Of a stretch of 64,000 bases of DNA, positions 51,001-64,000 are shown in pieces. Origin of the DNA: Candidatus Levyibacteriota bacterium. GTDB taxonomy: Bacteria > Patescibacteriota > Microgenomatia > Levybacterales > UBA12049. The stretch's first letter is position 1; every line of letters starts with the position of its first letter. A program made the position numbers. The stretch is taken from the NCBI GenBank assembly GCA_038253825.1, contig JBBSGT010000001.1, positions 11,819 to 75,818 of the forward strand, written 5' to 3'.

Positions 51001-54000
51001 GGTTTGATGCTGTGGCAAGAATCTTTCCGGCTTTTGATTTTGTCACGACACGTCGACTTAGGGAGGTCGCTGCAGCAATGGATAATTCGAATAGTTCGAC
51101 AAGAAGTCATGTTTCTCTGCTTGGGGGTATAGAGTATGACGGAGCTGATGAGATGTTTAGAAGGGAATTAATAGCGAGTGAAGCAAAAGTTACTAAATCC
51201 GAAGCAGGAATGGCCGGAGCTGAAGTTATCCATAGTCTACCTGCAGGTATTGTCCAAGAAAAGGATGGACGACCTGAATTAACACCGGGTCAGGTGAAAA
51301 TAATTCTCCAAGAAGGTCAAGAACAAGCAAAAGTTGCTGCCTAATCCTTCTATTCAGCGGTTAGTTCAGAGATCTCCAAAAATGTCTTACCATTTTCTGT
51401 TTTCATCACACCTTTAACTTTGGCAAAGCCATCCGCTGCGTCATTTTTGGCGTAATGTGCTTCAACTGGTCCGTTGTCATCTGTTAAGAGCAACCATTGT
51501 CCAGTACCTGCTTCATCAGGCCCTTTTTTCTTTACATAACATTCTTTTTCTATTGCGCCATCTGTTGGCGGAGGCGAATCAGGTGCAGTTTGAGATGTTA
51601 AAGGTGCTGCAGCATATATATTTGATGCAGGTGTTGTTGGAGTTGAGGGGGGCTCTGTAGGTGTTGTGGTCGTGAAGGGAGATGCTGACTGGATTGGCTC
51701 AGGTGTTACTGGTGCGGGTGTTTCGGTCGATTGAGTTTGCGTTGACGTCTGAGCATCCGACGCAGGTATTTCACTACTGGCTACAACATCTGATCCCAAA
51801 GCTACAGTTGGGACGATTCCAGGATCACTTGGAGCTGCTTCTGAGTTTACTTCACCAGGTTGACCAGTGGGTGAAAGATGGATCAGTCCGCGTATCATAT
51901 TTCGTAGTTTTTCATTCTTTTTGTACATAATAAAGCCAATTGCTCCAAGAACAATAAGAAAGATAAGGAAGAGGACACCACCGAGTGAACTACCACCATT
52001 TGAAGGTTGTTGTTGCGTATTTGCCGCCGGATGGGGTTGCCTCGTGGGTTTTGGTGGCTTTGTAGGAGTTGACGTTGGCTGATTCTTTAATTTAGAAATC
52101 CTGCCAGTAGGAGGTGTCACAGGTGCTGCTACTTGAGGAATAGGTAGGCCTTGTTGTTGCACAACAGCTAAAGAACGCAAAAGGATATTGTAATCAATTC
52201 CATCTACCTGCCCATTATCATCAAAATCTCCATAATTCTTTCCTTTGCAAAATGTTGTATTATTTTTTTCACCATAACAATTAATAAATGCATTATAGTC
52301 ATCAGCCTTAACAACATTATCCCCATCATCCGGGATTGTATCTCCCATAAGAACAGTCTGAAGTGGAATAAATAAAGATGTTTGCTTCTTACCTATATTG
52401 AGAGCTTTTCCTCCTACATCCGTTGGATTATCTTTAACAATTGTTCTGAGAGACTGATCTGTTCTGAAAACCAATTGATAATCCCCATCATTGACTGTAC
52501 TTCCTAAGTCAAATGAAGGATTTATAAAGCTGGTATAAGTAGGACTATTGATGTTGGTATCAAACGCTGCATTCCCTCGTATCGTATAGAGTGGTTTTAC
52601 ATTTGGATCGATGGAATTTACATTTGTTGCATAGAGAAAGACGATGACATTACGTTTTGGATGGAGCGGTTTCATATTGCCACCACCACTGCCAATACCT
52701 GGAACTGAAAAGGACAAATTAATAAGTGGTCCTTGCTGAGCGGCTGAGTTACTAGGTTCAGGTGAAGGGGCACCTGCGGGAGGACTTACTTGAGCAGAAG
52801 CACTACTTTTGGTAGGATCCGTTAAAAACGCATTAATTTTGGCATGACTTCCATTAGCACTTGATGTAGGAGAATCGCTTTGTTGCTGGTGAATATTTGA
52901 AGGGAGTCCGGCTGCGTGGGTGGAGAATTGATAGGCATACACCATTACTGAATTGGCTATGATAAGGATTGCCCAAATATGGACACCATATTGGGTGAAT
53001 GTTCTGATAATTTGGTTTCTGGTATGTTTTTGTTTTGCCATATGTTTTCTTCTCAAAAAACAACAACACAATGACGCAGAGCGCCAATATTTCCTTATTT
53101 TATAGTATATGTTTTACAGAAGAGACGCAAGGATGGGAGATGAGAAATTGCTGGGAATATAAAATTGGATGTTTGAGGTATAATTTGGTAAAATAGGAAC
53201 AAGTTATGCATGGGCCTCTAGCTCAACGGTAGAGCAGTACCCTCTTAAGGTATTGGTTTGGGGTTCAAATCCCCAGGGGCTCACAGCCACGTTTTTTTAC
53301 GGCTTTTTGTTATAATCAAATATTATCTCCATTTAGCATATTTATTGGGGAACGATGTGGCCAATCAATTGCATCTTAATCTTGCCAAGAAAAACTTAAA
53401 TAAAAATTTGTTAAAATAATAATATGAGCAAAATAAAAGTTACCTCTGGAATGGCAATTTCTCTTGATGGGTTTACTGCTGGTCTGAATCAAAATTTCGA
53501 AAAACCATTTGGAGACAATTTTGATACAGGTTTACTGGAGCGTTGGATGTTTGCTGAGCCTGAGAAGCATAAACATAAAAAAGAAATAGACGCTATTCTT
53601 GATGCAGGCGCGTTCATTATGGGTAGCAATATGTTTGGACCGAAGGACAGGAGAGACAAACCGGAATGGAAAGGATGGTGGGGAGATAACCCTCCGTATC
53701 ATGCTCCGGTTTTCGTACTCTCCCACAAGGAGCGAGAACCGATAGAAATGGAAGGCGGAACAACATTCATTTTTGTGACTGATGGCATTGCATCGGCACT
53801 TTCGAAAGCAAAAGAAGCAGCAGGAAATCGGGATGTAAAAATTAATGGAGGTGCGAATACCGTAAATCAGTATTTAGCGGCTGGGCTCATTGATGAACTG
53901 TGGTTACATATAGTTCCCGTCACCATAGGCGCCGGCACTCGACTTTTTGAGGGAGTGCCTAATCTCAATCTCGAACCGATTGAAGAGAGTGGAACCAACG

Positions 54001-63000: not shown

Positions 63001-64000
63001 GCACCGTATCTTTTTTGTTGATCTTCTGTCCCATAAAGAATAACTGTTCGTGGCTGAAGGTCTGTTGTGTCAATCATATTATCTGATCTGCTTGTAGCAT
63101 TGAGGATTTGTTCGCCTTGAAAGGTATCAAGGATTGTCACTGCAAAAGCTGAAATAATATCAGCTGTTTTTTCATGTAGTCCTCCCCATTTATCTATGGT
63201 GCGATATGCTTCATGATATCCCTGGCGATTTTCTTCAAATTTTTTTATTTCAGCATGAAGTCGTGTAATCTCCACCACGTTTGCTCGTGCGGCAGGTCGT
63301 TGTGCGAGACGGATCATATCTGCATTCAGCATATTAATCGCAGCATCAGTATCGCTTCTCATCATGTCCAAAAGTCCTTCTATCTTTTCTTTGACAGGGT
63401 CATCAAGCTTTATAACTTCTCCTATCTCGGTAGATTTAGTGTTTTTATTTTCTTTACTTCTTTCAATACCAGCACGAATTGTTCCAACAGCATCTACAAA
63501 ATCTCTTATATCGCCACCTGATTTTGCGATAGTATGACCGATTGCAGCAGCAACATTACTCGCTTGTGGTACCCAAAAACCAGAATCAGAACCACCACCA
63601 TTCCCACCGAGCATCATGGAGGAATTGTCATATACAAGATCATCGATTGCTTCGATTGATCCTTGCCATGTCTCAAAGCGTTCCATGATTGGCCATGTTG
63701 CTCTATAGCCACCAAATTTTTCCAGTGCTCTTCCTTCTAAATTTTGCGGAGTCCATATTTGAACTCCTCCTTTCCATTGTGCTCGTGCATCAAAAATTGC
63801 TTCCACTGATTTACCTTTTAATTCCCAATCAATAAGCAACCCTTGCCAACTTGCTACCATTTCATGTAAATGTCCCGATGTTTTTCCAGCTCCTGTTCTC
63901 CCTGCAACAAGCACACTGATTCCAGCAAGAGCAGCAAGAACGCTTCCTTCAAATTTTCCTAGAGGAAGGCGGCCATCCCTTTCATAATTACCAGGATACC

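What the first reader, a model, noticed from the sequence alone, without database searches (positions are those of the whole stretch)
53212..64000. Possible genomic island downstream of tRNA-Lys
A tRNA-Lys(CTT) gene is followed by accessory-type cargo. This includes two tandem DHFR-like reductases, an ABC-F ATPase (the family that includes ribosome-protection antibiotic-resistance factors), a GNAT acetyltransferase, a BrnTA module, and then a GC-rich segment with low-complexity proteins and a VirD4/HerA-like P-loop ATPase. tRNA genes are classic integration sites. No integrase is visible inside the window, and the element, if real, extends beyond position 64000.
Basis: inference. Interest (0 to 1): 0.55.

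Follow-up and report, generated by a model that had tools for sequence, protein, structure and literature searches.

The report
Recombinase-less variable segment at tRNA-Lys hotspot
The 11.6 kb after the tRNA-Lys gene of this tiny uncultured (CPR, Levyibacteriota) bacterium is a real variable segment sitting in a spot where related genomes carry nothing or carry mobile elements, but it is a patchwork with no integrase of its own, so it is an ordinary, decayed island, not an active one.

Summary
tRNA-Lys(CTT) is at 53212-53284. It is followed by two RibD_C reductases, an ABC-F ATPase, DUF4386, a GNAT, BrnA, four ORFans and a VirD4/TrwB-fold ATPase.

Corrections:
- BrnT is frameshifted.
- The "GC-rich" stretch reflects amino-acid composition (GC3 is low there).
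- The segment ends only about 0.75-0.95 kb past the window, at housekeeping BacA.

The window is chromosomal DNA of a Candidatus Levyibacteriota MAG. Eight related genomes share the left flank up to the tRNA, and each has different genes after it.

Three genomes share both flanks:
- One relative is essentially empty (tRNA-DUF805-BacA, 0.7 kb).
- This genome has 11.6 kb.
- A third has about 39 kb of ICE-like DNA, with a serine recombinase abutting the tRNA, plus T4CP, Replic_Relax and VirB4.

A fourth relative also has a serine recombinase there. The site is therefore an integration hotspot and the segment is a true indel.

The whole interval, however, holds no recombinase, relaxase, VirB4 or tRNA-end repeat. 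The ABC-F is a vertically inherited lineage gene that usually lies downstream of a tRNA-Lys, not resistance cargo.

Verdict: a mosaic, immobile island remnant. It is a new member of a known kind, of modest interest.

The parts
53212..53284 (+). tRNA-Lys(CTT). It forms the left boundary, and homology with all relatives stops right after ...GGGGCTCAC.
   Evidence: ARAGORN, Rfam, alignment of four genomes, and orthologous tRNAs in L014, L020, L021, L022, L039, L040 and L042.
53285..64000 (.). The variable segment (continues to about 64754-64949 outside the window, about 11.5-11.7 kb in all). It is absent from L020 and replaced by other DNA in L021/L026, L022, L014, L039, L040 and L042.
53424..54035 (+). 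RibD_C / DHFR-family reductase 1. It belongs to a 370-member 90%-identity cluster that is found in many metagenomes in varying neighbourhoods.
   Evidence: Pfam 75.5 bits, cluster size, contexts L033-L038, 88% identity, GC3 z = +2.1.
54051..54611 (+). RibD_C / DHFR-family reductase 2, 37% identical to reductase 1. A 71% ortholog lies between tRNA-Lys(TTT) and ABC-F in L043.
54834..56315 (+). ABC-F ATPase of the ribosome-protection-like class. It is a lineage-conserved gene, not recent cargo.
   Evidence: Pfam and NCBIfam. There are 13 species representatives at 71-86% identity and L043 at 92%.
56381..57073 (+). DUF4386 membrane protein. The full-length 230-aa reading needs a non-ATG/GTG/TTG start; the 184-aa reading from TTG at 56519 lacks the first 45 positions of the profile.
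57258..57821 (-). GNAT acetyltransferase with the most deviant codon composition in the window (GC3 0.43, z = +4.0). It is a singleton at 90% identity.
58051..58330 (+). BrnT toxin pseudogene (1-nt deletion near 58090).
   Evidence: Three-frame translation. It is 60% identical to the intact BrnT in L035.
58326..58589 (+). BrnA antitoxin (CopG_antitoxin), intact.
   Evidence: Pfam 101 bits, NCBIfam BrnA, 72% identity to L035 BrnA.
58852..59531 (-). Two ORFans: a Gly/Ala-rich protein of 126-136 aa (58852-59262) and a 60-77 aa protein (59298-59531). Neither has a family match.
59976..60596 (+). ORFan of 175-206 aa with a signal/lipobox-like N-terminus (...AAFNLPSCG). GC3 is 0.21 (z = -2.9).
   Evidence: the lipobox reading is my own inspection of the sequence.
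60870..62096 (+). Pro/Gly/Glu-rich low-complexity ORFan of 408 aa with a 72-nt tandem duplication at 61912-62044. It causes the local GC peak; GC3 is 0.20 (z = -3.0).
62151..64000 (-). Orphan, soluble VirD4/TrwB-fold ATPase. The full protein is 867 aa and its start codon is at 64754, outside the window. Walker A is intact, Walker B reads NE instead of DE, and there is no transmembrane segment.
   Evidence: Pfam. An exhaustive HMMER search found only one real relative. AF2 pLDDT is 81. Foldseek gives Cag-beta at E 3e-11 and TrwB at E 1e-9. Motifs are and hydropathy.

Best explanation
The DNA from 53285 to about 64.8-64.9 kb is a mosaic variable segment with no recombinase. It occupies an integration and rearrangement hotspot between tRNA-Lys(CTT) and the BacA-NadE block in the chromosome of a Candidatus Levyibacteriota (CPR) bacterium. 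I read it as three layers.

1. A lineage-conserved block, RibD_C - RibD_C - ABC-F. In relatives this block normally sits downstream of a tRNA-Lys gene. Here a rearrangement has placed it at the CTT isoacceptor.
2. Small accessory genes (DUF4386, GNAT) and a decaying BrnTA pair with a frameshifted toxin.
3. A block of four ORFans plus an orphan, soluble T4CP-like ATPase with a degenerate Walker B motif. This is most likely the relic of an integrated conjugative or mobilisable element of the kind that serine recombinases insert at this very tRNA in sister genomes.

What is shown and what is inferred:
- Shown: the indel polymorphism, the hotspot, the absence of mobility genes and repeats, and the conservation of the ABC-F.
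- Inferred: the order of events, the relic origin of the right-hand block, and that the segment can no longer move by itself.
For: Flanks and occupancy:
- L020 keeps UvrC...SBP5-SecG-CofD-DUF2130-RNaseHII-LC-LC-tRNA-Lys(CTT), then only DUF805, then BacA (82% identical) and the 80-aa gene.
- The window has BacA-81aa-NadE right after the T4CP gene.
- L021 and L026 are one 62.6-kb contig. It carries about 39 kb between the same tRNA and DUF805-BacA. That DNA includes a serine recombinase overlapping the tRNA end, a membrane-anchored T4CP, Replic_Relax, TraC-like, VirB4-like and M23 peptidase genes.
- L022, a complete genome, has an unrelated large serine recombinase 180 bp after the tRNA.
- L014, L039, L040 and L042 each have yet other genes there.

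No mobility machinery or repeats in this segment:
- Searches find no recombinase, relaxase or VirB4.
- Searches find no repeat of the tRNA end.

Mosaic nature and decay:
- GC3 z-scores range from +4.0 (GNAT) to -3.0 (LC424).
- BrnT is frameshifted.
- The T4CP Walker B reads NE and the protein has no TM segment.

The ABC-F is vertical:
- Identity is 92% in L043, 86% in L003 and 84% in L014. RNaseHII identity runs roughly in parallel: 74% for the L003 species and 68% for L014, and 78% in L024, which comes from the same sample as L043.
- It lies downstream of a tRNA-Lys in 6 genomes.

Orphan VirD4-type genes far from virB4 are the rule in Patescibacteria (PMC12102498).
Against: - No gene of the right-hand block resembles any seen gene of the L021/L026 or L022 elements. 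The 'relic of such an element' step therefore rests on position and on the T4CP fold only.
- About 23 kb of the L021/L026 element was not retrievable.
- The relatives are not close (RNaseHII at most 84% identical), so many events separate them. Insertion here cannot be formally told apart from loss in L020.
- DUF805, present in L020 and L026, is missing here, so this is not a simple insertion.
- Bulk GC and tetranucleotide composition are not atypical.
- The ORFans and the T4CP are intact ORFs and could be functional residents.
Confidence: 0.62

Rival explanations
1. Ordinary chromosomal plasticity, not an island. Under this reading the genes after tRNA-Lys(CTT) are old residents of a fast-rearranging region. 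The differences from relatives reflect deletions and translocations in those relatives, with no mobile element ever involved in this genome.
For: - RibD_C-ABC-F linkage next to a tRNA-Lys is seen without any integrase in L043, and ABC-F alone in L014, L003, L010 and L015.
- A RibDC1 homolog begins 1.9 kb after tRNA-Lys(CTT) in L042.
- ABC-F neighbourhoods differ in nearly every species.
- Composition is typical of the host.
- A second such variable block exists at 19.9-33.0 kb.
Against: - Two independent serine-recombinase elements use exactly this site in relatives.
- The right-hand 6 kb is ORFan DNA with deviant GC3 and a conjugation-type ATPase.
- A decayed toxin-antitoxin pair is typical of acquired DNA.
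Confidence: 0.25
2. An intact integrative (conjugative or mobilisable) element whose integrase and attR lie beyond position 64000.
For: There is a T4CP gene at the far end, the segment is next to a tRNA, and ICE-like elements sit at the same site in L021/L026.
Against: - Identical contigs carry the sequence on to BacA, an 81-aa gene and NadE.
- The interval contains no recombinase, relaxase, VirB4 or repeat.
- BacA-80aa-NadE is the conserved right flank in L020 and L026-L029.
Confidence: 0.03
3. The T4CP-like ATPase and its ORFan neighbours form a functional, exapted host system, for example substrate recruitment for the chromosomal Patescibacteria T4SS or another NTP-driven process, not a relic.
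For: - The ORF is intact at 867 aa, the model is confident and has the TrwB/Cag-beta fold, and Walker A and the catalytic Glu are kept.
- PMC12102498 reports 5,713 VirD4-type genes in 2,918 Patescibacteria genomes, only 148 of them near virB4, and raises exaptation.
- A 1,879-aa relative exists in another ORFan-rich locus.
Against: - The family has essentially two members among 1.84 billion representatives.
- It is absent from L020, L021 and L022 at this site.
- Walker B Asp is replaced by Asn and there is no membrane anchor.
- The neighbours have no detectable homologs.
Confidence: 0.1
4. Assembly chimera: unrelated DNA was joined at the tRNA during MAG assembly.
For: Assemblies of relatives do break at tRNA-Lys genes. 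L024 ends inside tRNA-Lys(CTT) and L043 starts inside tRNA-Lys(TTT). The NCBI assembly also breaks inside the T4CP gene.
Against: - The NCBI contig spans 50870-63619 across the tRNA junction, and a Logan contig spans 54207 through BacA. Both are 100% identical to the window.
- RNaseHII and BacA are each recorded on a contig of 84,622 bp.
- Both flanks are syntenic with L020.
Confidence: 0.02

Closest known systems
tRNA-associated genomic islands / integration hotspots (classical 'genomic island' concept)
   Same: It lies directly 3' of a tRNA gene. It shows presence/absence/replacement polymorphism between conserved flanks. It holds accessory genes, a toxin-antitoxin pair and a conjugation-type ATPase. 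Other elements with recombinases use the same site in relatives.
   Different: It has no integrase and no flanking direct repeats, and its bulk composition is not atypical. About one third of it (RibD_C-ABC-F) is a lineage-conserved block and not imported cargo.
Integrative conjugative/mobilisable elements of monoderm type (MPF-FATA), with large serine recombinases
   Same: The sister-genome element L021/L026 at the same site has a serine recombinase, T4CP, Replic_Relax, VirB4-like, TraC-like and M23 hydrolase genes. Serine recombinases leave no long direct repeats, which fits the lack of repeats here. The window keeps a T4CP-fold gene.
   Different: The window segment has none of the other modules. 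Its T4CP shows no sequence similarity to the L021 T4CP (BLASTP E 0.3) and lacks the membrane anchor.
Orphan VirD4-type T4CP homologs of Patescibacteria (PMC12102498)
   Same: It is a chromosomal VirD4-family gene far from any virB4 or relaxase, in a CPR genome.
   Different: It is extremely divergent, with only one relative at E < 1e-14 among 1.84 billion representatives. It has a 280-aa soluble N-terminal extension, a Walker B NE motif, and lies in a strain- or species-specific segment.
ARE-type ABC-F ribosome-protection proteins (Msr/Vga/Lsa/Sal)
   Same: It has two ABC domains with an inter-domain linker, is about 490 aa long, and scores above the NCBIfam NF000355 cutoff.
   Different: It falls far below the cutoffs of every named resistance family. 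It is conserved and apparently vertically inherited across the lineage, so it more likely has a housekeeping translation-factor role.
BrnTA type II toxin-antitoxin
   Same: Gene order and overlap are the same (toxin first, antitoxin overlapping), and both halves are recognisable.
   Different: The toxin is frameshifted, so the module is not functional as a toxin-antitoxin pair.

Membership tests
tRNA-linked genomic island | Located directly next to a tRNA gene | tested here: met
   The segment starts at the base after tRNA-Lys(CTT).
tRNA-linked genomic island | Present in some and absent from other related genomes with conserved flanks | tested here: met
   L020 has tRNA-DUF805-BacA. The window has 11.6 kb and L021/L026 about 39 kb. 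Both flanks are shared.
tRNA-linked genomic island | Integrase/recombinase gene at one end | tested here: not met
   There is no recombinase domain in any ORF of 53285-64949. There is also no tblastn trace of the L021 or L022 recombinases.
tRNA-linked genomic island | Flanking direct repeats (duplicated tRNA 3' end) | tested here: not met
   The 22-mer with up to 3 mismatches is found only in the tRNA itself, both in the window and in the 2.2-kb extension. No relevant repeat appears. Serine-recombinase elements would not leave such repeats, which is established knowledge of that family.
tRNA-linked genomic island | Base composition different from the core genome | tested here: inconclusive
   GC is 0.390 against 0.382 and the tetranucleotide correlation is normal. 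Per-gene GC3, however, is heterogeneous, with z from +4.0 to -3.0.
Integrative conjugative element (ICE) | VirB4-type ATPase and mating-pore genes | tested here: not met
   None was found by Pfam, NCBIfam or PHROGs.
Integrative conjugative element (ICE) | Relaxase | tested here: not met
   No relaxase or Replic_Relax domain is present, and there is no similarity to the L021 Replic_Relax. A novel relaxase among the ORFans cannot be excluded.
Type IV coupling protein (VirD4/TrwB) | RecA-like nucleotide-binding domain with inserted all-alpha domain | tested here: met
   The AF2 model has pLDDT 81 and pTM 0.78. Foldseek gives Cag-beta 8dol at E 3e-11 and TrwB 1e9s at E 1e-9 with TMt 0.57-0.64, ahead of HerA. 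Pfam PF02534 and PF12696 score above their cutoffs.
Type IV coupling protein (VirD4/TrwB) | Intact Walker A and Walker B motifs | tested here: inconclusive
   Walker A GRTGAGKTS is intact. Walker B reads FIRNE where 38 of 39 aligned relatives have DE.
Type IV coupling protein (VirD4/TrwB) | N-terminal transmembrane anchor | tested here: not met
   No 19-residue window reaches Kyte-Doolittle 1.6 anywhere in the 867 aa, whereas the L021 T4CP has such windows. This is a crude predictor.
Type IV coupling protein (VirD4/TrwB) | Encoded with a relaxase and/or T4SS | tested here: not met
   The neighbours are ORFans and BacA.
Antibiotic-resistance (ARE) ABC-F | ABC1-linker-ABC2 architecture without a membrane domain | tested here: met
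   There are two PF00005 domains plus PF12848. NF000355 scores 404 bits against a cutoff of 380.
Antibiotic-resistance (ARE) ABC-F | Membership of a named resistance family (Msr, Vga, Lsa, Sal, OptrA...) | tested here: not met
   Scores of 196-291 bits fall far short of the cutoffs of 680-1450.
Antibiotic-resistance (ARE) ABC-F | Confers resistance | not testable with these tools
   This needs expression in a susceptible host.
BrnTA toxin-antitoxin | Intact BrnT and BrnA genes | tested here: not met
   BrnA is intact. BrnT is frameshifted and only the repaired reading matches PF04365.

The most novel reading that the evidence does not exclude
The soluble T4CP-fold ATPase has a 280-aa N-terminal extension and a Walker B NE motif. 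Together with its four ORFan neighbours it could be a new, exapted NTPase system of CPR bacteria. One possibility is a cytoplasmic substrate-recruiting or DNA-handling module that feeds the chromosomal Patescibacteria T4SS used in epibiotic life. Its family currently has only two members: this protein and a 1,879-aa giant in another ORFan-rich locus, L032.
Probability: 0.1. Interest if true: 0.6.

Novelty: new member of a known kind. Interest (0 to 1): 0.3.

Why it matters
Mobile elements and genome plasticity in CPR/Patescibacteria are poorly documented, and relaxases and ICEs are reported as rare (PMC12102498). This locus and its relatives give a clean, comparable example of a tRNA-Lys(CTT) hotspot in Levyibacteriota. 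The hotspot is seen empty, holding a full ICE-like element with a serine recombinase, holding another recombinase element, and, in this genome, holding a decayed mosaic.

The result is also a caution for resistance-gene surveys of CPR genomes. The ARE-like ABC-F, the DHFR-like reductases and the GNAT look like island cargo, yet the ABC-F is a conserved lineage gene. For the window itself the result is ordinary: a degenerate island of a well-known kind.

Tried and rejected
- **tRNA 3'-end repeat.** I searched for it with up to 3 mismatches in the window and in the 2.2-kb extension, and ran a general repeat search. Nothing was found.
- **Composition.** The bulk GC and tetranucleotide profiles show no island signal.
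- **T4CP homolog search.** The word-index search found only the protein itself. PDB sequence search found nothing. Exhaustive HMMER gave one real relative.
- **Family searches on the ORFans and the T4CP.** PHROGs and PADLOC gave nothing useful, only a sub-threshold GNAT/Csx19 hit. Pfam at E <= 1 on the ORFans also gave nothing.
- **Recombinase or DUF805 remnants.** tblastn of the L020, L021 and L022 site-specific genes against the window at E <= 5 found none. The only hit is the L021 recombinase ORF tail overlapping the tRNA.
- **ORFan homologs.** phmmer of the island proteins against all ORFs of the relatives' elements gave no ORFan matches.
- **Metagenome scan.** An exact 47-nt scan with the tRNA returned only 2 loci, one of them a duplicate of L014.
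- **RNA and signal scans.** Rfam found only the tRNA. The promoter and terminator scan was not above shuffles.
- **Hybrid tRNA.** I considered and rejected a hybrid CTT/TTT tRNA-Lys as the trace of recombination. The window tRNA is CTT-type along its whole length.
- **Source of the 58590-58760 reading frame.** I considered that it is a gene fragment. It has no Pfam match.
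Full report
**What is there**

The window is chromosomal DNA of a Candidatus Levyibacteriota bacterium (Patescibacteria/CPR, Microgenomates group).
- It is 100% identical to NCBI MAG contig JBPCRD010000003.1 (GCA_050997215.1) over 50870-63619.
- It is also 100% identical to a Logan contig of SRR24807095 over 54207-64000. That contig continues 2.2 kb further.

The rest of the window carries housekeeping genes: PolA, MutS, MutL, UvrA, UvrC, RNase HII and CofD.

The single tRNA, tRNA-Lys(CTT), is at 53212-53284.
- two RibD_C reductases;
- an ABC-F;
- DUF4386;
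- a GNAT;
- BrnA;
- four ORFans, one of them a Pro/Gly/Glu-rich low-complexity protein;
- a VirD4-type ATPase that runs off the window.

I add five corrections.
1. BrnT is a pseudogene. A 1-nt deletion splits it, and the repaired reading matches the complete BrnT model.
2. The "GC-rich" patch is an amino-acid-composition effect. GC3 there is 0.20, the lowest in the window.
3. Low-complexity proteins also lie just upstream of the tRNA and are conserved in relatives.
4. The segment has no integrase. It ends at the T4CP start codon at 64754 in extended coordinates.
5. BacA begins at 64950 and is followed by an 81-aa gene and NadE.

**Is it an island?**

Orthologs of RNase HII and BacA led to related contigs.

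The left flank (UvrA-TGase-UvrC ... SBP5-SecG-CofD-DUF2130-RNaseHII, two low-complexity proteins, then tRNA-Lys(CTT)) is conserved in eight related genomes. RNaseHII identity ranges from 68 to 84%. In every one of them homology stops right after the tRNA.

What follows the tRNA differs in each genome.

| Genome | What follows tRNA-Lys(CTT) |
|---|---|
| L020 | only DUF805, then BacA (704 bp) |
| L021/L026 (one contig) | about 39 kb: a serine recombinase whose ORF overlaps the tRNA end, a membrane-anchored T4CP, Replic_Relax, TraC-like, VirB4-like, M23 peptidase, PIN toxin-antitoxin and other genes, then DUF805-BacA |
| L022/L023 (complete genome OZ246394.1) | a canonical large serine recombinase 180 bp after the tRNA, then cation-efflux genes |
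| L014, L039, L040, L042 | four further unrelated gene sets |

The two recombinases are only 21% identical, so different elements target this site.

The right flank, BacA-80aa-NadE, is shared by the window, L020 and L026-L029. None of the window's eleven segment genes occurs at this site in L020, L021/L026 or L022.

The segment is therefore a true indel at a demonstrated integration hotspot.

**Why it is not an intact element**

The whole interval is now visible. It contains no recombinase, relaxase, VirB4 or other mating-pore gene. It has no remnant of the relatives' recombinases and no repeat of the tRNA end.

Serine-recombinase elements would not leave such a repeat, so its absence alone says little. 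The absence of the recombinase itself is decisive for present-day mobility.

DUF805, which adjoins BacA in L020 and L026, is missing here. The history therefore includes a deletion or replacement as well as an insertion.

**Why it is a mosaic**

The ABC-F scores above the NCBIfam "ribosomal protection-like ABC-F" cutoff but far below every named resistance family. It is not cargo:
- Orthologs at 71-86% identity are in 13 GTDB species representatives, and at 92% in L043.
- Identity falls roughly in step with RNaseHII divergence.
- It lies 2.6-7 kb downstream of tRNA-Lys(TTT) in L003, L010, L015 and L043, and downstream of tRNA-Lys(CTT) in L014 and here.
- In L043 the order is tRNA-Lys(TTT), a 184-aa ORF, a RibDC2 ortholog (71%), a 304-aa ORF, ABC-F, about 6 kb of other genes, then NadE-NadD. 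No integrase is present.

The left third of the segment is thus a lineage-conserved linkage group that has changed tRNA-Lys partner. How this happened is unknown. The tRNA here is CTT-type throughout, so there is no hybrid tRNA.

RibDC1 is unusual in another way. Its 90%-identity cluster has 370 members from many metagenomes, in changing neighbourhoods. A homolog also starts 1.9 kb after tRNA-Lys(CTT) in L042.

Per-gene GC3, expressed as z-scores against the 36 upstream genes, is +4.0 for the GNAT, +2.1 for RibDC1, -2.9 for the 206-aa ORFan and -3.0 for the low-complexity ORFan. This spread suggests several origins.

**The T4CP-like gene**

- The full protein is 867 aa and has no hydrophobic segment.
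- An exhaustive HMMER search of 1.84 billion representatives gave only 61 hits at E <= 1e-3. There was a single substantial relative, the C-terminal part of a 1,879-aa protein (30% identity, E 4e-62). That protein lies in an ORFan-rich contig with sigma-70-like proteins.
- An AF2 model built on these hits is confident (pLDDT 81). It matches Cag-beta and TrwB ahead of HerA.
- Walker A is intact. Walker B reads NE where the relatives have DE.
- PMC12102498 reports 5,713 VirD4 homologs in 2,918 Patescibacteria genomes, only 148 of them near virB4, and raises exaptation. An orphan T4CP gene is therefore not evidence of an ICE in this phylum.

Given its position at a hotspot that hosts an ICE-like element in a sister genome, I rate "relic of an integrated element" as the most likely origin of the right-hand 6 kb. 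This step is inference.

**Verdict**

The segment is a real, variable, tRNA-adjacent islet. It is a recombinase-less patchwork that ends at BacA just outside the window, and a third of it is a relocated core block. This is a new member of a well-known kind, of modest interest.

The more interesting by-products lie outside the finding itself:
- the hotspot series in Levyibacteriota, including a roughly 39-kb ICE-like element in a CPR genome;
- the two-member divergent T4CP family.

Noticed in passing
window 19928-33025: There is a second variable block. It holds a bifunctional sulfate adenylyltransferase/APS kinase (-) and a cluster of WxL, WxLIP, SdrD-like and LytR_C surface proteins. It lies between HhH-GPD (19386-19988) and UvrA (33026-), which are adjacent in relative L005. 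It has the lowest tetranucleotide correlation in the window (0.87-0.89), and GC reaches 0.45.
   Followed up: partly
L021:5676-11809 and L026:1-9922 (same contig, logan SRR32818311_0, positions 5676-44633): A sister Levyibacteriota genome carries about 39 kb of ICE-like DNA at tRNA-Lys(CTT). It includes a serine recombinase overlapping the tRNA end, a TM-anchored T4CP, Replic_Relax, TraC-like, VirB4-like, M23 peptidase, PLD and a PIN toxin-antitoxin. ICEs are reported as rare in Patescibacteria. The middle 23 kb was not retrievable.
   Followed up: partly
L003:5480-11476, L010:6191-11476, L015:197-8715, L043:1-4157, L014:3838-11476, window 53212-56315: The ABC-F ortholog lies 1.5-7 kb downstream of a tRNA-Lys gene in six genomes: the TTT isoacceptor in four and CTT in two. 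The genes in between vary. In L008 and L012 it follows tRNA-Leu(GAG). The reason for this tRNA linkage is unexplained.
   Followed up: partly
L032:10001-15640: The only substantial relative of the window's T4CP is a 1,879-aa protein. It sits in a 44.5-kb contig of large ORFans, several of them with weak sigma-70 r2/r4 matches. No tRNA is present and GC is 0.42. The nature of this element is unknown.
   Followed up: partly
window 53424-54035: RibDC1 sits in a 90%-identity cluster of 370 members from many metagenomes. The other segment genes and the flanking core genes have clusters of only 1-3 members. Either the protein is unusually conserved or it moves between genomes.
   Followed up: partly
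window 62151-64000 (residue 366 of the 615-aa in-window part): The Walker B aspartate of the T4CP-like ATPase is replaced by asparagine (FIRNE against hhhhDE in 38 aligned relatives). This may mean reduced or altered ATPase activity.
   Followed up: yes
window 56381-56519: The full-length DUF4386 reading (230 aa, as annotated by NCBI) starts at an Ile codon. The first ATG/GTG/TTG gives 184 aa and misses the first 45 profile positions. Either a rare start codon is used or the gene is truncated.
   Followed up: partly
window 11188-13814 (-): PPDK_N (516 aa) and a PEP-utilizers mobile-domain protein (359 aa) are separate, overlapping ORFs. Together they resemble a split PEP-utilising or rifampin-phosphotransferase-like enzyme.
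   Followed up: no
L024:15985-16031 and L043:1-55: Two contigs from one sample end or start inside tRNA-Lys(CTT) and tRNA-Lys(TTT) respectively. The NCBI assembly of the window's genome also breaks inside the T4CP gene. Assemblies fragment at these loci, which will hide such hotspots in MAG surveys.
   Followed up: yes
window 61912-62044: The low-complexity ORFan contains a 72-nt tandem duplication (85% identical copies), giving repeated (E/P)GELF(P/S)V(K/E)ADV(A/T)EPEQP motifs.
   Followed up: no
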